Below, in pieces: positions 5,345 to 15,753 of a DNA stretch of 64,000 bases. Location of the stretch: contig JAOABU010000063.1 in the NCBI GenBank assembly GCA_026418195.1, positions 4,113-68,112 of the forward strand, written 5' to 3'. Below the pieces are notes generated by a model. It was not told where the DNA came from, did no database searches, and saw only the letters and a program-made list of their open reading frames with translations. Position numbers and translations under genes: made by a program. The DNA comes from Spirochaetota bacterium. Its GTDB lineage: Bacteria; Spirochaetota; Spirochaetia; DTKZ01. Position 1 is the stretch's first letter. Every line of letters starts with the position of its first letter.

Positions 5345-6151
5345 ATGACTTTACCCGAAGCGCTTTCCTTCATGCACATCAACCTTCCTACCACGTTGAC
5401 AGACCTAGAAACTACCTATAGAAGCCTTATTAAACAATACCATCCAGATCGAAACCAAGACCGTCTGCAATGGTCACACGAAATGACCCTTAGACTCAAT
5501 GAGGCATACACATTGATCCGAGATGTTCTCACTAAGAATACCGTAGAAGCAGAGGAGACGGAAGAGGAACCCAATACTCCATCACCAATCTACACAGAGC
5601 TCCAGAAAGCTTGGCAGAAGATCGAGAACGGAATCCATCTGTTTTATACCTACGGGTTAGAGAATCCCCATATTCGACAGGAGGGGCCTTTCCACATCAA
5701 GTTTATCCTTGCTCAGAAACAGATCAAGCAGGGGAAAAAAATCCTGGAACTATATGAACAAAAACCACTCCTTCCTGAGGATCGAGAAGAACTTAGCCTG
5801 CAGAAAAGCTTCTGCGAAGCGTTCCTTCAAAACATGCGGATACAGAAAACCTTTGTGGCAGATGGATCCATCCACCACAAAGCGTACAAGCACTACTACA
5901 ATGGGAGTCGTCTTCTCGATGGATTCTTAAAAAAAATCCTATTTCCAGAGGATTACTCGAACCTGATTCTGCCCCCCAAATGCTCCACCCTTTGCCAACA
6001 GGAACTTCTCACGGTCCTTCTTCATTACCATCAAAGCACATGGGTAGGTGAAGCCACGATCAAACTGGCCTTATTGGAAAGCTTTTTGAACCTAATGAAC
6101 TTCCGAAAGGAACGGGATTCTTCCCACCGCTCCTTTTTCTATCGGTTCTAG
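5345..6151 (+). CDS. J-domain (DnaJ-like) protein with a helical C-terminal region
   Basis: YRSLIKQYHPDRN...LNEAY N-terminal J-domain with the HPD motif. No G/F-rich or zinc region. Confidence 0.85.
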   Translation: MTLPEALSFMHINLPTTLTDLETTYRSLIKQYHPDRNQDRLQWSHEMTLRLNEAYTLIRDVLTKNTVEAEETEEEPNTPSPIYTELQKAWQKIENGIHLFYTYGLENPHIRQEGPFHIKFILAQKQIKQGKKILELYEQKPLLPEDREELSLQKSFCEAFLQNMRIQKTFVADGSIHHKAYKHYYNGSRLLDGFLKKILFPEDYSNLILPPKCSTLCQQELLTVLLHYHQSTWVGEATIKLALLESFLNLMNFRKERDSSHRSFFYRF

Positions 6152-6230
6152 AGTGAACAAGTAAAACGCCTTCCTCCTGCGTCAGCCAGGATGCTTTCGG
6201 GGAAGGCGTTCACTGCTTGCTTCAGGCTAC

Positions 6231-8843
6231 CTAAGTACCCTTTTGGGAAAGATTGTACTGAGCAATAGCGAGCTTTGCGATGGGGATCCCATAGGGTGAA
6301 CAGGAAACGTAATTCATTCCTACCTGCTGTGCAAAAGGGATGTTCTCCGGCTCCGCTCCATGTTCTCCACATAGACCCAGCACAATGTCTGGTCGCACCA
6401 ATCGAGCCCGCTCCGACGCAATCTTGATCATTTCTTTCACCTGATCGCCCAATACCTTGAATGGGTTCTGGGGAAGTAGGTCCATTTCGTTGTAATCGGA
6501 AAAGAAGTTGTTGAAATCATCCCGGGAAAGTCCATTGGTAGTTTGGGTTAAGTCGTTGGTTCCGAAGCTGAAGAACTCGGCATATCGGGCAATTTCGCCA
6601 GCCTGGAGGGCAGCGGCAGGTAGTTCGATCATGGAACCAACCCGATAGTGGATGGGTTCTTCGAATCCAAACTGTTTTCGTACTTCCTCTTCGATATCTC
6701 GGATCCCTACGATAGTTTTTCCTTCGATCTTTTTTCCATTCCGGATAATCTTTACCTCGGAAGCGGTCATGACCACAGGAATCATGATTTCCGGAATGAC
6801 ATTCACCCCTTCCTTCTTCAAGCGATACGCCGCTTCGAAGATGGCCCGTACCTGCATATTGTAAATCTCTGGGTACGAAATAGCGATACGAACCCCTCGA
6901 TGCCCTAACATGGGGTTTACTTCCCGAAGCAAGTCACACCGCGCTTTCACTTCTTCGGGTGTCATCTTTCGCTTCCGTTTTTGGAGGTATTTCACAAAGT
7001 CTGCCATTCCTTCCTTCGTGTGAGGAAGGAACTCATGTAAGGGTGCATCGAGAAGTCGAATCGTTACCGGGAACCCTTCCATGATTTTAAAAAGCTGATA
7101 GAAGTCTTCGGATTGGTCTTTCTTCAATTCTTCTAGCACTGCTAATCGCTCTTCCTGGGTCTCCGCAAAAATCATGTAACGGAACCGATTGATCCGATCC
7201 TCGTTGAAAAACATATGTTCAGTTCGGCACAAACCGATTCCCGGCGCTTTGAACAACCGGGCTAACTGGGCGTCTTTCGGTTGATCCGCATTGGCATGTA
7301 CGTCGAAGCCATAGATGTACTTCTGCACGATTTCCAGAAGTTCCAATAAACCGGAATCTTCCGGCGTTGGTTTCATAAGGGTCCCTTTCCCTAAGTAAAT
7401 AGCAGGAGGATCGTAATAAGGGACGTTCAACGTGATCACATCACCCTCTTTCACCAAGTTTCCTGCTATTTTCATTCCCTCTTTCGTGAACTCTATCTCA
7501 GGGTATACCAGAGCTACTTTTCCAAGGCTTCGAGCCACTACTGGCGCATGGGACGCATATCCCCCCTCTGAAGTTAGAACTCCTTTGGCTACTTCAATGG
7601 CTTTCACGTCTTCGGCAAAGGTAGCAGGCATCGCCAGTATGAAATCTGTAGATTGGTTTGTCTGAACTGCCTGTCGATAGGCTTTTAGAAGGGCATCGGT
7701 AGAGAAGTATACTTTTCCTATAGCTGCTCCTACAGCACCCGCAATTCCTCCGGTAACTTTCGGATACTTCTTGACCGACGTAGGATCCAAGGTAGGATGA
7801 AGTATCTCCGAAAGTCTTCCAGGTTTAATCGCTTTGATGACAAACTCTTCATCTACGATCCCTTCGTTCAATAGATCGAGGAGACTCTTGATTTCCGCCT
7901 GTGTAGATTTGTTCGCTGCAGGTTGTTGATCAATAATCCAAAGTTCCCCATTTTCTACCGTAAATCGCACCCGTCGGATCTCCTTGAACTTCCGTTCCAG
8001 TTGTTTGCCAATTTCCTGTAAACGGTTCAAAATCCTAGGTTCTATCTTGGCTATGGGAGTCCCTTCCTTTTCCCGTTCATCAAAGGCTTGGGTGAAGAAC
8101 TCCCCCATCAAAGCATTTTCTCCGCTGATGATATTGTGGGTAAAGAAGCTGCCAAAACAACTCTTCTCGTTGAAATTTCCAAACACCATCGTCTGGATTA
8201 GAAGGGCTGAATCTTCACTGGTAGTGTTTTCCTCTATGACCTTTCGGAAGAGGTTGATAACGAACATGAGCTGCTGATACGCATCTGTATAGATTTCTTC
8301 TGGATAGAGGGACCGGAAGTTTTTAAAAGCCCGTTGAAGAGCAGCTTTCGTTTCTCCGTCCAACGCCTTACGATACGCTTTCAGTTTGGAAATCCGGTCC
8401 TTGTCAGTCTGAGTGAGAAGTTCCAAGTCTATGATGTGTTGAATCACGTTACAATACTCGTGGTATGCAAACTTTTCACCCACAAAAGCTCCGAACCCCT
8501 CGATGGTTGAATCGCACAATCCAATGTTGTGTATGGATTGTGTATTCACGATGTTAAGCATGGGGCTCTCTACTACCTTTACCAGCAGGGGATTCGAGGG
8601 ATCGTTAAACCCTTTCCCAAAGGCTTTCTCTGTCTTGTCCAAAGGTTCCTTCAGGACCTCCCATACCTTATATGTCGTTCTAGGTAAGGATCGTACTGTA
8701 GCATTGGGAAGGATAAAACCGGGAGAGGTAGGGATATTGAGGGTAGCCAATTCAACGATCCGCCTTCCTCGATTTCCAATAGCTTCGATAGCCTCCGGGC
8801 TGTCATCGTATTGGCCGTTACAGAAAAAGTAATAATCTGCCAT
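6231..8843 (-). CDS. ppdK: Pyruvate phosphate dikinase-like protein with a degenerate ATP-grasp domain (possible PEP-dependent protein phosphotransferase)
   Basis: Intact phospho-His loop GGYASHAPVVAR (H432) and PEP/pyruvate domain (GIGLCRTEHMF, IRLLD, NPMLGHRG, MIELP, FSFGTNDLTQ, GLCGEHG). N-terminal nucleotide-binding motifs are substituted. Confidence 0.88.
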   Translation of the reverse strand: MADYYFFCNGQYDDSPEAIEAIGNRGRRIVELATLNIPTSPGFILPNATVRSLPRTTYKVWEVLKEPLDKTEKAFGKGFNDPSNPLLVKVVESPMLNIVNTQSIHNIGLCDSTIEGFGAFVGEKFAYHEYCNVIQHIIDLELLTQTDKDRISKLKAYRKALDGETKAALQRAFKNFRSLYPEEIYTDAYQQLMFVINLFRKVIEENTTSEDSALLIQTMVFGNFNEKSCFGSFFTHNIISGENALMGEFFTQAFDEREKEGTPIAKIEPRILNRLQEIGKQLERKFKEIRRVRFTVENGELWIIDQQPAANKSTQAEIKSLLDLLNEGIVDEEFVIKAIKPGRLSEILHPTLDPTSVKKYPKVTGGIAGAVGAAIGKVYFSTDALLKAYRQAVQTNQSTDFILAMPATFAEDVKAIEVAKGVLTSEGGYASHAPVVARSLGKVALVYPEIEFTKEGMKIAGNLVKEGDVITLNVPYYDPPAIYLGKGTLMKPTPEDSGLLELLEIVQKYIYGFDVHANADQPKDAQLARLFKAPGIGLCRTEHMFFNEDRINRFRYMIFAETQEERLAVLEELKKDQSEDFYQLFKIMEGFPVTIRLLDAPLHEFLPHTKEGMADFVKYLQKRKRKMTPEEVKARCDLLREVNPMLGHRGVRIAISYPEIYNMQVRAIFEAAYRLKKEGVNVIPEIMIPVVMTASEVKIIRNGKKIEGKTIVGIRDIEEEVRKQFGFEEPIHYRVGSMIELPAAALQAGEIARYAEFFSFGTNDLTQTTNGLSRDDFNNFFSDYNEMDLLPQNPFKVLGDQVKEMIKIASERARLVRPDIVLGLCGEHGAEPENIPFAQQVGMNYVSCSPYGIPIAKLAIAQYNLSQKGT

Positions 8844-8851
8844 AATTAACC

Positions 8852-9787
8852 TCAGAACAGATCTAGAACGCGATTCACCGCGCCCCGAAGGAATACTTCA
8901 AACCTTGGGCTTGCGCCTTCATACAGGTACTTCTGAAGCTTAGCAACATCCTTTATGTTATCCCCTACCACACTGATCATGATGGGAGTGCCATGCTTCA
9001 CTTTCCCCCACTTGAAGAGCGCATTGATGTCATTGATCCGCTCGTTCTCGTACCAGATCAACACATCCAAATCAGGATACTTCGCTTTATAGCTCTCGAT
9101 GATTCGTTTCCACGCCTCGACATTTCCATTGTGGAATAGTTCGTTGGTAACTAGGACTCCATACTTAGGGGTCATGCGTTTTTTTACAGAGGGCCCTTTG
9201 GAAGCTTCCACAGTAGGAGAAGTCTTCGGAACCCGCTCCTCGATAGGGGCTACTTCCTTCCTTTTCGGGGAGGTATACTCAGGTCGTGTCGAAATTTTAC
9301 CTCCATCTAATAGGGTAATTGTATCCTTTACCGCAGTATCCAATATATTACCATCCACCGAATCGGATCCTACTGGGCCCGCATACACCACCACCAATTC
9401 ATCCTTTATGAGAGGAAGAGCTTGTTCCCAATGCTCGGCTTTCTTAGGGTTGATGAGGAACGTTCCCGCTTGGGGAGAAGCATACATCAAGACGAGTTGG
9501 ATTCGGTCCCATGGACGAAACACAGAAAGGAGGTCCTTTACATCGTCCCAACCTCTCTGAATATTGTGGGATCTGAACACATAGGAAAATTTATCTACCA
9601 AAAGGGCACTTAGGATCGTTTTTACCTGTTCCCTTCGTACCTCTCCGCTCTCCAATGATTCGTTCAATAGATCCGCCAAGTTTGCCCCTTCTTGGATCTC
9701 CCCCACATACCGATTTACCAGTTTAAAATGGCGCAAAGCCGTGTTAAAACCGGCTTTGCGCGCAAGAAAATTCAGTTCGTTTTCCAT
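8852..9787 (-). CDS. Conserved spirochaete protein with a C-terminal HPr-like domain
   Basis: C-terminal about 95 aa (VLVTNELFH...DLDVLIWYENERIN...GKVKHGTPIMISVVGDN) follows the HPr sequence pattern. Tightly packed between cfpA and the ppdK-like gene. Confidence 0.75.
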   Translation of the reverse strand: MENELNFLARKAGFNTALRHFKLVNRYVGEIQEGANLADLLNESLESGEVRREQVKTILSALLVDKFSYVFRSHNIQRGWDDVKDLLSVFRPWDRIQLVLMYASPQAGTFLINPKKAEHWEQALPLIKDELVVVYAGPVGSDSVDGNILDTAVKDTITLLDGGKISTRPEYTSPKRKEVAPIEERVPKTSPTVEASKGPSVKKRMTPKYGVLVTNELFHNGNVEAWKRIIESYKAKYPDLDVLIWYENERINDINALFKWGKVKHGTPIMISVVGDNIKDVAKLQKYLYEGASPRFEVFLRGAVNRVLDLF

Positions 9788-9790
9788 AGG

Positions 9791-11761
9791 TTAGAGCTCT
9801 TGTAACTCGTCAGACCCGCCTCGCTTTTTCGGGGGTGTTACATCTGCTTTCCCCTTCACCTCTTCTTTGGATTCCTCTCCCGTCGCATATTTCGGGGTTT
9901 CCTTCGGAAGGGTTTTCACGATAGGCTCGTCAATTTCAGAGGTGAAGTGCTGCGTAATATCTTCCCGCACAGTAGATCGTCTGCGCTTGAAGGTAGCGAA
10001 GGCAGCATCCTGGAATCCTTTGGAAATTCCATGGAGGAACTCGTTCAACACGTTAGCCATCTGCATCAATGTGTATTTCTTCCGTTTAATGCTGGTAATA
10101 TTGATATCCAGAAGGAGCCCAGGCTGGATATGGTACGGATTGATCAAGTAATCGAACGCCTCGAACTCTTTTTCCAGGAAATCAACCCTCTGATCCAGGA
10201 TCACTCGAGTCTGGGGATTCTGGTACCCATAGATGATTTTGATCTTTTCCCTGCACTTAGCCAGCATTTTCTTGTACAGGTTCTTCTCGTACAGGTAGGT
10301 TCGGTTCAGTCGTTCTACATCGGTCTCCTCTGCTTTAATTAAAGTGATCTCGTTCCACACCTTTTCGATTTCTTCGTAGAGTGGTTCGGTGCTTTCTTTT
10401 TTCGCTTTCGCTCTCCGGATTCTCCCCGCTACCTTTCGGCTTAAATCTTCGAAATCGTTCACCTTGAAGCTGGACTTGCTGCTCTGATAAATCGCTTCTA
10501 CTACGTCCCACAGATGCTGAATTTCGTTCTTGAAGGACTCCATCTGTTTGTCGTAGGCGGCTTGTTCCTTCTGTAGTTGTTCCGCATCGTAATACTTGAG
10601 GCGAATCACATACCGTTCATCGGGAAGGTTTGCTTCATTCACATCCTCATACTCGCGAATGATCAGTTCCCTTGCATTCTTTAAGTTTTCAATGTACTGG
10701 TAGCCCATCTTGCTGGTATCGAGGATCGAGGTAAGGGAGTTCACCGCTGTGTTGAATCCACGATTTCGGATATTCTCCAGATCTACGATCTTCTTTAAGT
10801 TTTCCCGAATATTGAGGGGATCGAACTCCTTTGGATCGATCTCTGCTCGAAGTCCTTCGATTTTATCCATTAGGTTCTTAGCAAGGAACGTGTACCGTTT
10901 GGACTTTTCATTCTCCACGTCGTCATCTGTATAGTTGGGAACCCGTTTCATTTTCTCAAAGAGGAGCTCCGTATCCTGCAACTCTTCCTTTCCTTCATCC
11001 ACCAGCTGCTCCTGTAGAGCTTCCACTTCTTTTTCGATGAAGTTGATGATGGTTCGGGAAATTTGATCCTTGATGATATACTCTACCGTTGCCTGATACT
11101 GGAAAATCGGGCTAATCAACTCGGAATCAAGGATGTTCACGGATAACTTTACATCCGTTACGGTTTTGGGCTTGGTCAGGTTGTCTTTGAAAGCACACTT
11201 GACCACGGAATATGCATTCTCACCCCGGATGAAAGCACCTACATCCGTCTTCTGCCTCAACAGCGAGTTCGTCTCGTTCTCTAAGTCGTTTAACCCTCTC
11301 TGGATATGACCATGGAGGTGGCCGTACATGTTCACGATGGATTTTTCGATTTCACCCGTATTGAACTTGTCTGCACCGGCAATCTGATCCAGCATCTCGG
11401 CGATCTCTTTGGGAGAATACCGAGCAAGAGTTTTGCTTTCCTCTTTGTCGATGAAGTTGCGGATCTTCTTTACCATCTCGTCTTCTGCGGTGACGATGTA
11501 CCGGTTGAACATATTTTGGTAGTTCTGGTTGAAGTAGTTATAGAGTTTCTCCTTCAACCCCCCCATCACGTCCAACTTTTCCAATACTTCTTTGGGGAGT
11601 TTTGTCTGAATTACATTTAGAATATTCTCTGTTTCTTCCCGGATAACTTGTTCGAATTCCTCTTTCTGCCTTCGGCCTTCCTGAGCTAAACTGTTCCTGG
11701 ACCCTACAGCCGATGGTTTAGTAGGATGAAATACATTCGGGCTCCTGGATATATCTGACAT
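9791..11761 (-). CDS. cfpA: Cytoplasmic filament protein A
   Basis: [21 protein letters not shown] and [26 protein letters not shown] match the treponemal CfpA sequence as I recall it. GGAGGAG RBS before ATG 11761. Confidence 0.93.
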
Positions 11762-11813
11762 ATACAACTCCTCCCTAAAAAATTTCTGGGGCAATCCCCG
11801 AGTTTCCTAATAC

Positions 11814-11841
11814 AGTATAGTACATCTTCAAAGAAAAACAA
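11814..11841 (-). promoter_or_regulatory. Putative promoter of the cfpA operon
   Basis: TTGTTT-N16-TATACT on the minus strand in the 100-bp intergenic gap. Confidence 0.5.
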
Positions 11842-11861
11842 TACAGTACCTTTAACTGCTA

Positions 11862-14525
11862 CTACCTATACACCACCTCCTTCTTTTTACTATTCAAATA
11901 TTCCACAAACGCTTTGCAGTGGGACTCTTGCTGAAGCCCCGCAATAACTCCTTCCAGTTCAGACTTTTTATCCTTCGGGACTACCGATTCTAATGTAGGA
12001 CCTAGGTAGAGTTTCAAGATCCCAATCCCTTTTGCCACTTCCTGTTCGATGTATCGGGTGGTAATACCCCAGAGTGTATCCCCACGTTTCACGACATAAA
12101 GGGAAGAATCGGGTAGTTTGAATTGGTTGCCAGGATAGATCCAGTTAGGATCCGGCCGCAAATCTTTCGGCGAGTCCAATCGTCGGTACCCATTAGCGTC
12201 TGCAATCTCGTTTACCAGGTAGAACACATCCATCACCGTGATCGAAATATTCCCAAGGGGAGGAATATTTGCCGTATAGGTAGAAGGAAATGCATCTACT
12301 TCCTTTTTCTCTTCCGCTCCTTTCTGTGCGATAGGACTCTTTTGTACAGGTGCATCTTGTTGATCCCGCCCTAGTTGAGCCTTCCCCTGAACTTGAACTT
12401 CTTTGGGTCCCTCGGAAGGTTCTCCCGCCTTTAAAAGAATATTCCCTTTTCCTATGGGTTCATCTGTTTTAGTAGTGGTGGATGTCTTATCTTCCTCTTG
12501 TTTCAGGGATTCGCTTTTTCCCGAAGTACCATTAGGTGCTATAGATTGTTCGTGTAGCGTTTGGGTAGTAGACGTACTTCTTCCTATCCCATGAGGAAAC
12601 AGATCGAATTGCCATAGGGCAACCATTAAACCAGAGAGGAATAGCCCTCCTAATAGGTACAGACCCCATCCCCGAATGAATATCTTCTGGTCTTCGGAAG
12701 ATTCCCCTTTTGAAACGGCTCCCCCTAGTTCATCCTTTGAAGGTCGCATGGGGAAAGGGGGCGTTGGAGATGAAAGACTCGAAGGGGTTGCCAGCGAGGG
12801 GGTAGACTTTGGTTGGACAAGCTGTTGGGTAGAGGGTTGCGGGGATCGCGGCTCTGTATGTGAAAGATTCGATGTTGGAGATTGGAAGCTCGCTGTTGTC
12901 GCTGGTTGAGTTCCCACGGCTCTCTTGACCCGCTTAGGGGGAACCTGATGAAGGTGTTCCAGAAACCTTAACAAACGGTCCCGTTCCTGTACGAAGAACG
13001 TCTCCTCCTTTAAGGAGGTTCGTATCTTATCGATATTCTCGATCGATTTATTAGCCTGTAAGAGTTTTAAAGGAGTGAGACGCCCTTCGATTTGATAGAA
13101 GAGATGCATCCCGTTGGGGAACACCCAGAAATCCCCTACAAAGGGAATACACCCTTCTCGATCTTCAGGAAGCTGATACAAGAAAGAGTTCTTGGCCTTC
13201 CTCCTCCATCGTTCCCACACTGTTCCCTTGTTTGAAGGATCAATACTTCTAGAGAGAGTTTCTAAATTCCAAATCAGGTAGGGAATTACAGCCTTCATTT
13301 CATTTAAAGGAAGTTCCCGAATCAGGAGAGGCTCCAAAGATTCAAAAGAAGATATACGAGGAGAGCCTTTTTTCCATTGTTCCTGGATTAGGTTCAACGT
13401 GGAAACCATCATTCTCCACCAATCCTGTTCCAGTAGGTTTCCCACCTCAGCACAATTCTTGGCTATATTCACTCCATACGTAGCAAGTAGAGTTAAAGGA
13501 GAAGGAAGGGGTGAGGAATGAAACCGATAAGGTATGTTTCCTAAGATTCTTGTACCGATGGGTAGTCCCTTGTTTTCCAATGCTTTTTGTAAGTTGTTTC
13601 TCTCATGGGAGAAACCAGAAGAAAGATTGAACGCAATTCCAAAGGGAGAAGGAAACTCGACCGATCCTCCTTCCCCACAGAACCTGAATCCCTGGAGATG
13701 GAAACACCCTGATGCATCAGGTTCAATCGCAAAGAGGGAAGTATCCATTCCTGAAAAAAGATTTATAATGCTTCGAAGTTGTTCGATCCGGTGGGAAGCT
13801 ACCCGAAATTCCTTCTTTATAGCTACCGAGCGTTTCAACTTTTGCAGGATTCCTTCTTCAAACTGTTCTTCGATGCACCACTGGAGCATGTCTGGATCGA
13901 TCCCTGCTCGGGAAAGGGACCAGAGGAAGTCTTTGGGCACATGCACTACCCCCAATCGACCTTCATGAAAGAAATAGATTTGTTGCCCGAGAAGAATAAA
14001 CCCTGGATTCTGGAATACCCTGGCCAAGTATCGTAGAGGGTTATCCTTGACAAAGGAACTTACCCGTTCTGCAAGATAAACGAAGTGAAGATCCTCCGCT
14101 TCCCGCTGCCTGAGGTTGAAAAGTTCATCCCCATTGTGGTGTACATGAAGATTCCCATTCTTAAAAAAGAAAACGATAGATTTCCCTTTTTGGGGAGGAG
14201 ATTCTACAGTTTCGTACTCGAACTCGGCCACTGGAAGGTTTTTTTCGTTTAAAAATTGCTTAAGCCTTTCGATACGGACAGGATCCCCTACGAAACGGGT
14301 TTCCCCATTCAGGGGTAATTCTACATTCTCATGTTCTAGAAAGGGGTTTCCTGTATAGTTATCCGTTACGAGAACTGTAGATACATATTTCTTGATTTCT
14401 TCTGGCAACTTGGCGCTGTTCCCGATACGCAAGAAAGGTCGATACTCCGTGTGGGAACTCCCTAGATAGATGAGGTAACATTCACCATCGATATGGAAAA
14501 CCCGTTCAGCCGGATTTTCTATCAT
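11862..14525 (-). CDS. Large single-pass membrane protein with a C-terminal LysM-like peptidoglycan-binding region
   Basis: About 530-aa N-terminal domain, Pro/Ser/Thr linker, TM helix (WGLYLLGGLFLSGLMVALW), charged linker, then DPNWIYPGNQFKLP and YVVKRGDTLWGI LysM motifs. Confidence 0.8.
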   Translation of the reverse strand: MIENPAERVFHIDGECYLIYLGSSHTEYRPFLRIGNSAKLPEEIKKYVSTVLVTDNYTGNPFLEHENVELPLNGETRFVGDPVRIERLKQFLNEKNLPVAEFEYETVESPPQKGKSIVFFFKNGNLHVHHNGDELFNLRQREAEDLHFVYLAERVSSFVKDNPLRYLARVFQNPGFILLGQQIYFFHEGRLGVVHVPKDFLWSLSRAGIDPDMLQWCIEEQFEEGILQKLKRSVAIKKEFRVASHRIEQLRSIINLFSGMDTSLFAIEPDASGCFHLQGFRFCGEGGSVEFPSPFGIAFNLSSGFSHERNNLQKALENKGLPIGTRILGNIPYRFHSSPLPSPLTLLATYGVNIAKNCAEVGNLLEQDWWRMMVSTLNLIQEQWKKGSPRISSFESLEPLLIRELPLNEMKAVIPYLIWNLETLSRSIDPSNKGTVWERWRRKAKNSFLYQLPEDREGCIPFVGDFWVFPNGMHLFYQIEGRLTPLKLLQANKSIENIDKIRTSLKEETFFVQERDRLLRFLEHLHQVPPKRVKRAVGTQPATTASFQSPTSNLSHTEPRSPQPSTQQLVQPKSTPSLATPSSLSSPTPPFPMRPSKDELGGAVSKGESSEDQKIFIRGWGLYLLGGLFLSGLMVALWQFDLFPHGIGRSTSTTQTLHEQSIAPNGTSGKSESLKQEEDKTSTTTKTDEPIGKGNILLKAGEPSEGPKEVQVQGKAQLGRDQQDAPVQKSPIAQKGAEEKKEVDAFPSTYTANIPPLGNISITVMDVFYLVNEIADANGYRRLDSPKDLRPDPNWIYPGNQFKLPDSSLYVVKRGDTLWGITTRYIEQEVAKGIGILKLYLGPTLESVVPKDKKSELEGVIAGLQQESHCKAFVEYLNSKKKEVVYR

Positions 14526-14604: not shown

Positions 14605-15753
14605 ATGATTCGCTGCGAGAGTTCCTACAGAAAAATTATTCCCATTGCCAGTGGCAAGGGAGGAGTAGGGAAAACCGTACTAGCTGCCAACCTAGGAATT
14701 GCTCTGGGAAAAGCAGGCTTCCGAACGATCTTGGTAGATCTAGATCTCGGCGGTTCTAACCTCCATTCTGTATTGGGCATCAAGAATAAATTCCCTGGTA
14801 TTGGTAACTTTATCTCTGGGAAAACTCTTTCTTTCAAAGAGATCATCCTGCGCACCGAATACCCAAACCTATTCTTTATTCCGGGGGATGTTCTGGTACC
14901 GGGTGCAGCAGATATCAATTACCTTCAGCGAAAGCGTATCCTAGACAACCTTCTGAAATTGGAAACTGATTACATACTTCTCGATCTTGGTTCAGGAACC
15001 CATTCCAGCACTCTGGATTTTTTTCTCAGTTCCAATGCAGGAATTCTGGTTGCCGTTCCCCAGGTGCCTTCCATTCTAAATACCTATAGCTTTCTGAAGA
15101 ATGCTCTTTTTCGATTACTTTCTCGGATCTTCGCCAAGCAGAAGGAAATCTCAGAATACCTGAAATCCCTCCAAAAGGAAGCACAACCCAATTCCATTCC
15201 CGGCACAGGTAAGATCCTACAGGAGATAGAACGGATGAACCCCGAAGCCTGCGCTACCGCCAAACAGATATTGCAGGCCTTCAAGCCTCACCTGATTGTA
15301 AACATGGCTAAGCATCCTGATGATCTAGCTATCGTGGAGAGTTTAAGGAACCTGGTGCAAAAGAATTTGGAAATTCCCTTCGGATGTCTGGGAATCGTGT
15401 TTCGGGATGATCAAGTTCATGAATCCATTGAACAGATGCGTCCCCTTCTACACCTAGCTCCCGAACGACTTGTATCGAAGCAAATTCTCCGGATGGCAGA
15501 AAAAATCCTCCAGTCGAAGAACTTTCCTGATTTACCCCTCGATCTATCCCAGTACAAGGATTCTTTCGAACTTGCCGAGATTGAAGCCCACTATGACCTA
15601 GCAGAAACTACCAGTACCGAAAACGGCAAGAAACAGGAAGAAGCATTGACTCCCGAAGAGTTCCTAACTGTACTCACTGCCCAACAGAAGAAAATCAACG
15701 AACTCCAGGGCACTATCCGAATGCTCACCCTACGAGGAAGACAAGAACCTTAA
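14605..15753 (+). CDS. MinD/FlhG/ParA-family P-loop ATPase with a C-terminal extension
   Basis: Deviant Walker A SGKGGVGKT, DLDLGGSNL, LLDLGSG and IVNMA. Coiled-coil-like C-terminal tail. Confidence 0.88.
   Translation: MIRCESSYRKIIPIASGKGGVGKTVLAANLGIALGKAGFRTILVDLDLGGSNLHSVLGIKNKFPGIGNFISGKTLSFKEIILRTEYPNLFFIPGDVLVPGAADINYLQRKRILDNLLKLETDYILLDLGSGTHSSTLDFFLSSNAGILVAVPQVPSILNTYSFLKNALFRLLSRIFAKQKEISEYLKSLQKEAQPNSIPGTGKILQEIERMNPEACATAKQILQAFKPHLIVNMAKHPDDLAIVESLRNLVQKNLEIPFGCLGIVFRDDQVHESIEQMRPLLHLAPERLVSKQILRMAEKILQSKNFPDLPLDLSQYKDSFELAEIEAHYDLAETTSTENGKKQEEALTPEEFLTVLTAQQKKINELQGTIRMLTLRGRQEP

What the first reader, a model, noticed from the sequence alone, without database searches (positions are those of the whole stretch)
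8852..9180. Cryptic HPr-like domain in an unannotated protein
The C-terminal segment YGVLVTNELFH-NGNVEAWKRIIESY...DLDVLIWYENERINDINALFKWGKVKHGTPIMISVVGDN-IKDVAKLQKYL parallels HPr element by element (vtitNxxGlH, helix, sdixlxyxgkxvn, Lgvxxgxxixisaxgxd, final helix). His219 (codon at 9131-9133) aligns with His15. The Arg17 and Ser46 equivalents appear absent, so it would not be an HprK substrate and probably has its own dedicated donor. It is joined by a Pro/Lys/Thr linker to an unrelated N-terminal domain of about 165 aa.
Basis: inference. Interest (0 to 1): 0.75.

Follow-up and report, generated by a model that had tools for sequence, protein, structure and literature searches.

The report
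Tandem HPr-fold protein beside cfpA
A conserved spirochaete protein encoded between the cytoplasmic-filament gene and an odd pyruvate-phosphate-dikinase look-alike is predicted to consist of two copies of the fold of the sugar-transport phosphocarrier HPr, the second keeping the key histidine, which hints at an undescribed link between metabolism and the cell skeleton.

Summary
The ORF 8852-9787 (-) is real and conserved (3200 relatives). It belongs to the TP_0747 family.

Sequence similarity to HPr is not above chance. The fold is a different matter. An AlphaFold model (pLDDT 94.7) has HPr's b-a-b-b-a-b-a order with His219 just before helix 1. HPr fills the top 25 structure matches (Z 6.7-8.0).

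The N-terminal part is not unrelated: residues 69-163 match HPr better still (Z 8.8), so this is a tandem HPr-fold protein.

His219 is His in 267 of 273 relatives. The Arg17 and Ser46 equivalents are absent.

The gene is co-inherited with cfpA and a PPDK paralogue: 106, 107 and 105 of 301 genomes, 102 with all three. That paralogue keeps its catalytic His and PEP domain but has a degenerate ATP domain.

Best reading: a docking partner in a CfpA/PPDK-like module. Real phosphotransfer to His219 is possible, at about 0.3.

The scan noted the same thing earlier on other DNA (e1-5048467).

The parts
8852..9787 (-). ORF of 311 aa, TP_0747-family protein (P0001). It is the middle gene of the cfpA / TP_0747-like / PPDK-like trio.
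   Evidence: ORF. 3200 relatives with E<=1e-3, all listed ones tagged PF27497. The tag is named TP_0747_N. AlphaFold2 model has mean pLDDT 90.8.
9590..9787 (-). Residues 1-66: N-terminal helical cap (helices 6-9, 11-32, 37-47, 52-66).
   Evidence: DSSP on the model. No fold assignment was attempted for this part alone.
9299..9583 (-). Residues 69-163: first HPr-like fold (b70-75, a84-90, b96-104, b108-112, a117-123, b131-138, a146-160). It has no conserved His at the helix-1 cap.
   Evidence: VIA-align on the whole model: HPr 9s8b_C and 7ff5_A at Z 8.8, rmsd 1.9-2.0 A over 80 of 84-85 residues; 1pch Z 7.5; NPr Z 6.8. The next rows on this domain that are not HPr are at Z<=4.5. Conserved residues are Y69 and N75, with an NPKN motif in the family consensus.
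9173..9298 (-). Residues 164-205: flexible Pro/Lys/Ser/Glu/Thr-rich linker, variable in length between species.
   Evidence: pLDDT 58-59. Composition. Large length variation in alignment A1.
8897..9172 (-). Residues 206-297: second HPr-like fold (b209-212, a220-236, b241-246, b249-251, a256-259, b268-275, a281-291). It carries the family's most conserved motifs, TNELFHNGNVEAWK and LFKWGKVKHG.
   Evidence: Domain model with pLDDT 94.7 and pTM 0.88. Foldseek. VIA-align. Conservation.
9131..9133 (-). Codon CAC for His219, the residue immediately before helix 1. This is the position of HPr His15, to within one residue.
   Evidence: for the codon. for the DSSP assignment. His in 267 of 273 distinct relatives that have a residue there. 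hhalign places the neighbouring N220 under His15, so the register is uncertain by one.
8855..8896 (-). Residues 298-311: conserved C-terminal tail beyond the HPr fold, ending in a near-invariant Leu-Phe.
   Evidence: L310 in 260 and F311 in 264 of 264 sequences with a residue there. F311 is invariant in A1.
9791..11794 (-). cfpA, cytoplasmic filament protein A. Its stop codon lies 3 nt before the ATG of the TP_0747-like gene.
   Evidence: NCBIfam NF040882, 1120 bits against a cut-off of 500. Junction TAA-CCT-ATG.
6231..8843 (-). PPDK-like paralogue (870 aa). It starts 8 nt after the TP_0747-like stop. Catalytic His432 (codon 7548-7550), the PEP/pyruvate domain and Cys825 are conserved; the nucleotide-binding N-domain is degenerate.
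   Evidence: TIGR01828 at 650 bits, below the cut-off of 843. Only 34-35% identical to this genome's two canonical PPDKs. PPDK_N scores 17 bits here against 185-186 bits in the canonical ones. Conservation split by domain. Invariant residues.

Best explanation
The gene encodes a TP_0747-family protein. It consists of a helical cap and two HPr-fold domains joined by a disordered tether.

It is the middle member of a three-gene module: cfpA, the TP_0747-like gene, and a PPDK paralogue. The module is tightly packed here and inherited together across spirochaetes.

I read the protein as a non-enzymatic docking or regulatory adaptor. It would work the way Crh and unphosphorylated HPr work when they bind CcpA, Rsd, FruR or glycogen phosphorylase.

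- The C-terminal HPr-fold domain presents its conserved face, which corresponds to HPr's partner-binding face: the His219 loop, the start of helix 1, and short helix 2. The likely partner is the swivelling phosphohistidine domain of the PPDK-like enzyme.
- The N-terminal HPr-fold domain, on the other end of the tether, holds the pair at the CfpA filament.

Shown: the gene, its conservation, the two predicted HPr-like folds, the position and conservation of His219, the co-inheritance and gene order, and the degenerate nucleotide domain of the neighbouring enzyme.

Inferred: which partner each domain binds, and that binding rather than phosphate carriage is the conserved activity.
For: Fold:
- C-domain model has pLDDT 94.7.
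- HPr family tops Foldseek, with E 0.013-0.2 and probability up to 0.99.
- HPr also tops two VIA-align runs: Z 7.6 with the next fold at 5.9, and the top 25 rows all HPr or Crh.
- The N-domain matches HPr at Z 8.8.

Conserved face:
- The near-invariant residues are 213-227 and 255-266.
- These form the loop plus helix 1 and helix 2, the elements that make HPr's binding face. That they do so in HPr is recalled knowledge.

Module:
- Intergenic gaps are 3 and 8 nt.
- The PPDK-like gene lies downstream in 80 of 80 loci. cfpA lies upstream in 74 of 75 loci with room to test.
- 4 further metagenome loci show the same order.
- In 301 sampled genomes of the phylum the counts are 106 (TP_0747 family), 107 (CfpA) and 105 (PPDK-like). 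Each is 84 of 247 among high-quality genomes, and 102 genomes hold all three.
- Co-occurrence persists where linkage is broken.
- In T. denticola, TDE0842-0844 move together in a transcriptome table (PMC3914990, passages seen).
- One public protein fuses CfpA to the N-domain (P0263).

For docking over catalysis:
- There is no Arg two residues after the His.
- The six relatives without the His still keep N222, E224 and W226.
- The sister N-domain uses the same fold with no His at all.
Against: - No binding was shown by any search.
- A His kept in 267 of 273 relatives, exactly at the helix cap, is more than a docking role strictly needs.
- The neighbouring enzyme seems to have lost its normal phosphate acceptor site, so it invites a protein acceptor.
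- For the C-domain, the margin of HPr over other two-layer alpha/beta folds is only about 1-1.5 Z units. A phosphoglucosamine mutase domain scores Z 6.5 and aIF2-alpha scores 5.9-6.0.
- The tool notes that Z under 8 can reflect a common arrangement.
- Everything rests on predicted, not solved, structure.
- No sequence-level homology to HPr supports common descent.
Confidence: 0.45

Rival explanations
1. Genuine phosphocarrier. The PPDK-like enzyme acts like Enzyme I: it phosphorylates itself on His432 from PEP. Lacking a working nucleotide site, it passes the phosphoryl group to His219 of the tethered HPr-like domain. That domain then signals to, or modifies, something at the CfpA filament.
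For: - His219 sits at the helix-1 cap and is conserved in 267 of 273 relatives.
- It is followed by Asn-Gly-Asn at the helix N-terminus, where backbone amides could hold a phosphoryl group (inference).
- The PPDK-like enzyme keeps His432, Cys825 and the RTEH and NDLTQ motifs in 30 of 30 orthologues.
- It keeps 107 of 139 columns invariant in canonical PPDKs in the PEP domain, but only 23 of 153 in the nucleotide domain. The GIRTP segment is deleted in 30 of 30.
- Pfam PPDK_N falls from 185 bits to 17 bits.
- The genome has two canonical PPDKs, a pyruvate kinase, a true Enzyme I and a true HPr elsewhere. This pair is therefore surplus to ordinary metabolism.
Against: - No Arg17 equivalent.
- Six divergent relatives lack the His.
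- No detectable sequence relationship to HPr.
- PPDK has no counterpart of the helical HPr-binding subdomain of Enzyme I (recalled).
- A 1.1-Mb relative genome (G102) has neither a canonical PPDK nor a pyruvate kinase, only the PPDK-like gene. That may mean the paralogue is still a working dikinase that needs no protein acceptor.
Confidence: 0.3
2. Filament accessory factor only. The protein helps assemble, bundle or anchor CfpA filaments. The HPr-like folds are mere scaffolds, and the adjacency to the PPDK-like gene reflects co-expression rather than contact.
For: - Near-perfect co-occurrence with CfpA: 105 shared of 106 and 107 genomes.
- A 3-nt in-frame junction with cfpA.
- The CfpA/N-domain fusion P0263.
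Against: - Where linkage to cfpA is lost (four genomes of genus g29), the gene stays next to the PPDK-like gene rather than cfpA.
- The PPDK-like gene shows the same phyletic pattern, with 103 genomes shared.
- The C-domain's conserved face is HPr's enzyme-binding face.
Confidence: 0.15
3. The HPr likeness is a coincidence of a common two-layer alpha/beta arrangement. The C-domain binds a small ligand or nucleic acid, with no functional analogy to HPr.
For: - Best Z is 8.0, in the range the tool calls middling.
- Ferredoxin-like designs, aIF2-alpha and mutase domains score Z 5-6.5.
- hhalign probability is 1%.
Against: - Two independent aligners put HPr first for both domains.
- The alignments cover 78-84 of ~85 HPr residues at 2.0-2.9 A.
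- The N-domain stands more than 4 Z units above other folds.
- The conserved His falls at the one position that defines HPr.
Confidence: 0.08

Closest known systems
HPr (PtsH; Pfam PF00381), phosphocarrier of the bacterial PTS
   Same: - Predicted b-a-b-b-a-b-a open-faced sandwich of about 85 residues.
- A conserved His immediately before helix 1.
- The conserved surface lies on the loop/helix-1/helix-2 face.
- It is encoded next to a PEP-utilising enzyme with a phosphohistidine domain.
   Different: - No significant sequence or profile match.
- No Arg17 or Ser46 equivalents.
- It occurs as the second of two HPr-like folds in a 311-aa protein with a helical cap, a long tether and a conserved 14-residue tail.
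- The neighbouring enzyme is a PPDK paralogue, not Enzyme I.
- The genome has a normal HPr, HprK and Enzyme I elsewhere.
Crh and other non-carrier uses of the HPr fold (Crh-CcpA, HPr-Rsd, HPr-FruR, HPr-glycogen phosphorylase complexes)
   Same: - The HPr fold is used as a protein-binding regulator without His phosphotransfer.
- These complexes are among the structural hits.
- The N-domain here, like Crh, lacks the His.
   Different: - Crh is a clear sequence homologue of HPr and is regulated through Ser46. This family is neither.
- The partners here would be a PPDK paralogue and a cytoskeletal filament.
Enzyme I-HPr pair, and multidomain phosphotransfer proteins with HPr-like modules (FPr, DhaM, MTP; recalled from the literature, not fetched)
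   Same: A PEP-utilising enzyme with a swivelling His domain is encoded beside an HPr-fold module. There are precedents for HPr-like modules embedded in larger proteins and serving non-transport phosphorelays.
   Different: - The enzyme descends from PPDK and keeps a (degenerate) ATP-grasp domain instead of Enzyme I's helical HPr-binding subdomain.
- No EIIA or EIIB lies nearby.
- The module is linked to cfpA.
TP_0747 family (Pfam PF27497, TP_0747_N); T. denticola TDE0843
   Same: It is a member. The precomputed tag sits on this protein and on all listed relatives, and gene order is the same: cfpA, hypothetical, ppdK.
   Different: Nothing differs. The family has no assigned function, and its Pfam entry names only the N-terminal part.

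Membership tests
HPr / PTS-HPr (PF00381) | Significant match to the family's sequence profile | tested here: not met
   - No Pfam hit at E<=1 for the whole protein.
- A whole-genome search with PF00381 finds only the true HPr on contig C113, not this locus.
- BLASTP against that HPr gives E=13.
- hhalign gives probability 1%.
- A family profile searched against PDB sequences finds no HPr at E<=10.
HPr / PTS-HPr (PF00381) | Open-faced beta-sandwich with order b-a-b-b-a-b-a | tested here: met
   On predicted structure only. DSSP order. Foldseek top hits are HPr. VIA-align gives Z up to 8.0 for the C-domain and 8.8 for the N-domain.
HPr / PTS-HPr (PF00381) | Active-site His at the N-cap of helix 1 (His15) | tested here: met
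   His219 is the last non-helical residue before helix 220-236. It is His in 267 of 273 relatives. The register against HPr is uncertain by one residue. That His15 is the N-cap in HPr is recalled.
HPr / PTS-HPr (PF00381) | Arg two residues after the His (Arg17) | tested here: not met
   Position 221 is Gly in 267 of 273 sequences. Positions 220 and 222 are Asn.
HPr / PTS-HPr (PF00381) | Regulatory Ser at the cap of helix 2 (Ser46, the HprK site; present in this genome's own HPr, which sits next to HprK) | tested here: not met
   The residue before helix 256-259 is Asn255, which is Asn in 252 of 274 sequences.
HPr / PTS-HPr (PF00381) | Reversible phosphorylation of the His by a PEP-dependent enzyme | not testable with these tools
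Needs biochemistry.
TP_0747 family (PF27497, TP_0747_N) | Match to the family model | tested here: inconclusive
   The precomputed tag PF27497.1 is attached to this very protein and to all 120 listed relatives, and is named. The local Pfam copy does not hold the model, so it could not be rescored (one search lists no family).
TP_0747 family (PF27497, TP_0747_N) | Position between cfpA and the ppdK-like gene | tested here: met
   This is a regularity, not a formal criterion. It is broken in some lineages.

The most novel reading that the evidence does not exclude
Spirochaetes with cytoplasmic filaments carry a second PEP-driven phosphorelay that is not part of the PTS. A PPDK descendant has lost its nucleotide site and acts as an Enzyme-I analogue. 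It phosphorylates His219 of a tandem-HPr protein tethered to the CfpA filament. The PEP/pyruvate state of the cell is thereby written onto the cytoskeleton, affecting cell division, chromosome handling or shape.
Probability: 0.3. Interest if true: 0.85.

Novelty: new variant of a known kind. Interest (0 to 1): 0.62.

Why it matters
CfpA filaments are a long-known but functionally obscure feature of treponemes and their relatives. The gene next to cfpA has been 'hypothetical', and the one after it has been taken for an ordinary glycolytic PPDK.

Two things turn this into a testable question:
- The middle protein is predicted to be two HPr folds, one with the key His.
- All three genes are inherited as a unit, while the 'PPDK' has a degenerate nucleotide domain.

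The question is whether a PEP-sensing or PEP-driven step acts on the spirochaete cytoskeleton.

It also bears on metabolic reconstructions of reduced treponemes. There, this paralogue is the only PPDK-family enzyme, and no pyruvate kinase was found (G102).

If the His is phosphorylated, this would be a new branch of PEP-dependent protein phosphotransfer, evolved from PPDK rather than from Enzyme I.

Tried and rejected
- **Complex prediction.** The C-domain (residues 203-311, with alignment A1) was folded with the full PPDK-like enzyme (alignment A3). The result was no verdict: score 0.04 against a mark of 0.32. This counts neither for nor against binding.
- **Internal duplication by sequence.** hhalign of the N-domain profile against the C-domain profile gave probability 0.6%. 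The two HPr-like folds cannot be shown to be duplicates.
- **Sequence searches for solved relatives.** A phmmer search and a family-profile search against PDB sequences found nothing meaningful.
- **Relatives without the His.** I wanted the genomic context of relatives lacking His219. A metagenome scan with P0155 returned only four loci, 46-47% identical, and all have the His. A search of 301 phylum genomes with the stand-alone 118-aa form P0261 hit only the C-domains of full-length proteins. The natural experiment was therefore not available.
- **Promoter and terminator scan of 5900-12300.** It found no more sites than shuffled sequence gives.
- **Literature.**
  - 'TP0747' is in 0 papers.
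  - 'TDE0843' is in 1 paper, as a table row only.
  - For 'HPr-like' with 'spirochete' or 'cytoplasmic filament', 30 papers hold two of the three terms. None of the 15 listed holds 'HPr-like'; the other 15 were not seen.
  - 'cfpA' with 'pyruvate phosphate dikinase' is in 3 papers. In the passages read from two of them, no functional link is discussed.
- **Residue-level superposition on HPr.** Neither the model coordinates nor the PDB coordinates can be reached from the script box. The His15 equivalence therefore rests on DSSP position and alignment ranges, and is good to within one residue.

Full report
**What is there.** The finding lies in the last third of a 311-aa ORF at 8852..9787 on the minus strand.
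- The quoted peptide is exact, and codon 9131-9133 is CAC for His219.
- The gene upstream on the same strand (9791-11794) is cfpA, the cytoplasmic filament protein of spirochaetes (NF040882, 1120 bits).
- The gene downstream (6231-8843) is a pyruvate-phosphate-dikinase relative that scores 650 bits on TIGR01828, below the cut-off of 843.
- The three genes are packed with gaps of 3 and 8 nt.
- The ORF is a real, conserved gene. It has 3200 relatives at E<=1e-3 in the large protein collection, all labelled spirochaete where labelled. All carry the precomputed Pfam tag PF27497, which the Atlas names TP_0747_N.
- It has 191 clusters at 50% identity.
- The local Pfam and NCBIfam copies give no family.

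**Is the HPr likeness more than chance?** At sequence level, no.
- This genome has a normal HPr next to HprK on another contig. BLASTP of the C-terminal 109 residues against it gives E=13.
- A whole-genome search with PF00381 does not touch this locus.
- hhalign of the C-domain profile against a profile of 120 spirochaete HPr proteins gives probability 1%, though the weak alignment is collinear over 80 columns.

At fold level, yes.
- AlphaFold2 on a 69-sequence alignment gives a confident model, with mean pLDDT 90.8. The C-terminal 109 residues folded alone give pLDDT 94.7 and pTM 0.88.
- The elements are strand 209-212, helix 220-236, strands 241-246 and 249-251, short helix 256-259, strand 268-275 and helix 281-291. 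This is the order of HPr.
- Foldseek against the PDB ranks HPr first for the whole model (7x7h_B, E 0.045, target-normalised TM 0.74).
- For the domain model, nearly the whole top of the Foldseek list is HPr, Crh or NPr (E 0.013-0.2, TM 0.5-0.64).
- VIA-align, run independently over 48,161 representative chains, puts four HPr chains first at Z 7.6-6.7. The next fold is at 5.9.
- On Foldseek's top 1000 chains, the first 25 VIA-align rows are all HPr or Crh: Z 8.0-6.7, rmsd 2.0-2.9 A, 78-84 of about 85 residues aligned.
- These Z values are middling by the tool's own warning, and a mutase domain reaches 6.5. I therefore put the HPr fold at about 0.85, not certainty.

**The histidine.**
- His219 is the residue just before the first helical residue in both models. 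From recalled knowledge, that is the place His15 holds in HPr.
- The best VIA alignments (model 3 to chain 1) put residue 17 of the domain, which is His219, opposite residue 15. Others, and hhalign, are shifted by one.
- Across 280 distinct relatives aligned to a domain HMM, the position is His in 267 of the 273 that have a residue there.
- The six exceptions (S, Q, N, R, I, G) are the most divergent members, and they still keep N222, E224 and W226.
- Gly221 replaces Arg17, and Asn255 sits where Ser46 would be.
- The most conserved stretches of the whole protein are TNELFHNGNVEAWK and LFKWGKVKHG. These cover the loop, the start of helix 1 and helix 2, the elements that form HPr's partner-binding face.

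**The N-terminal part is not unrelated.** VIA-align on the whole model aligns residues 69-163 to HPr at Z 8.8, with rmsd 1.9-2.0 A over 80 residues. The next HPr-family rows are 1pch at 7.5 and NPr at 6.8. Nothing else on that domain scores above about 4.5.
- The protein is therefore a helical cap (1-66), a first HPr-like fold without a cap histidine, a disordered linker of variable length (164-205), a second HPr-like fold with the histidine, and a conserved tail ending in Leu-Phe.
- The two folds show no profile similarity to each other.
I reproduced it here from this window's own sequence.

**Context and co-inheritance.**
- In 80 related loci from reference genomes, the PPDK-like gene follows in 80 of 80. 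cfpA precedes in 74. Five of the other six have under 300 nt of upstream sequence, and one (L070) truly lacks it.
- Four metagenome loci show the same order.
- In an even sample of 301 genomes of the phylum, the TP_0747 family is found in 106, CfpA in 107, and the PPDK-like orthologue in 105. The orthologue was searched with its own profile at E<=1e-230, which canonical PPDKs do not reach. Each is found in 84 of 247 high-quality genomes.
- Comparing the listed handles, 102 genomes have all three. All but two of the mismatches (G048, 97% complete, and G278, 93%) are in genomes 71-85% complete.
- Linkage is not absolute. In four genomes of genus g29, cfpA is elsewhere while TP_0747-like and PPDK-like stay adjacent. 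In five genomes of family f44, the TP_0747-like gene has neither of the other two within its locus, and cfpA and the PPDK-like gene lie on other contigs (checked for two), yet all three are kept.
- One public protein (P0263, 841 aa) is CfpA fused to the N-domain. With the 3-nt in-frame junction this could be a lost stop codon, so I give it little weight.
- In T. denticola, TDE0842 (cfpA), TDE0843 (hypothetical) and TDE0844 (putative PPDK) fall together in a transcriptome table (PMC3914990, passages read).

**The neighbouring enzyme.**
- This genome has two canonical PPDKs (1376 and 1347 bits), a pyruvate kinase, and a true Enzyme I.
- The neighbour is only 34-35% identical to the canonical pair, but 50-97% identical to its orthologues.
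- Thirty orthologues keep His432, Cys825 and the RTEH and NDLTQ motifs invariant.
- I compared columns that are invariant in six canonical spirochaete PPDKs with what the paralogue keeps. It keeps 107 of 139 in the PEP/pyruvate domain, 22 of 42 in the His domain, and only 23 of 153 in the nucleotide-binding domain. The Lys of GGKGANL is Arg, the Arg of SVRSG is Val, and the GIRTP segment is deleted in 30 of 30.
- Pfam PPDK_N scores 185-186 bits on the canonical pair and 17 bits here.
- That these motifs are the ATP/phosphate site is recalled from the PPDK literature.
- An enzyme that can still take phosphate from PEP onto its histidine, but has an altered acceptor site, is what a dedicated donor for an HPr-like protein would look like.
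- Against that, a 1.1-Mb relative genome (G102) has only this paralogue, with no canonical PPDK and no pyruvate kinase. There it may have to be a working dikinase.

**Weighing.** The fold, the histidine's place and conservation, and the three-gene unit are well supported. Which activity is conserved is not.
- I favour a docking or regulatory adaptor (0.45). Arg17 is missing. The surface rather than the single His survives in divergent members. The sister domain uses the fold without a His. Solved HPr complexes show the fold is a versatile binder.
- True phosphotransfer from the PPDK-like enzyme to His219 is a serious rival (0.3) and the most novel reading.
- A filament-only accessory role (0.15) and a coincidental fold (0.08) follow.

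**Literature.** Nothing on this was found in the open literature with the searches run. Supplements were not examined.

Noticed in passing
window 6231-8843 (-): The 'PPDK' next door is a third, divergent PPDK-family paralogue with a degenerate nucleotide-binding domain. The Thr before the catalytic His is Ala (GGYASHAP). The genome has two canonical PPDKs elsewhere.
   Followed up: yes
G102 (unnamed 1.1-Mb complete genome of the same class), C1:810737-813361: This reduced genome has only the PPDK-like paralogue. No canonical PPDK (TIGR01828 best score 608 bits) and no pyruvate kinase (PF00224) were found. It is unclear how PEP is turned into pyruvate, and with what phosphate acceptor.
   Followed up: partly
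protein P0263 (841 aa, public collection): CfpA is fused in frame to the N-terminal half of a TP_0747-like protein. The protein ends inside the linker. It may be a natural fusion or a lost stop codon at the 3-nt junction.
   Followed up: no
proteins P0261 and P0268 (118 aa each): These are stand-alone homologues of the C-terminal domain alone, 35-40% identical, and they lack the histidine at the cap position. Their source and neighbours could not be retrieved. None was found in 301 sampled genomes of the phylum.
   Followed up: partly
L095, L096, L099, L100, L105 (family f44); L094, L097, L098, L104 (genus g29): These are lineages in which the three-gene cluster has been split but all three genes are retained. 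They are useful natural controls for any co-evolution analysis.
   Followed up: partly
window 11862-14525 (-) and 14605-15753 (+): Upstream of cfpA lies an 887-aa protein with only a weak LysM signal, whose N-terminal part recurs upstream of cfpA in most related loci. Beyond it, divergently transcribed, is a ParA/MinD-type ATPase gene. This may be a cell-division or cytoskeleton neighbourhood.
   Followed up: no
L001 (G000:C113) and G000:C133:41418-43109: The genome carries a standard HPr (with the His-Ala-Arg motif and a Ser46-type site) directly downstream of HprK, and a full-length Enzyme I. The TP_0747 system is therefore additional to a normal PTS core.
   Followed up: partly
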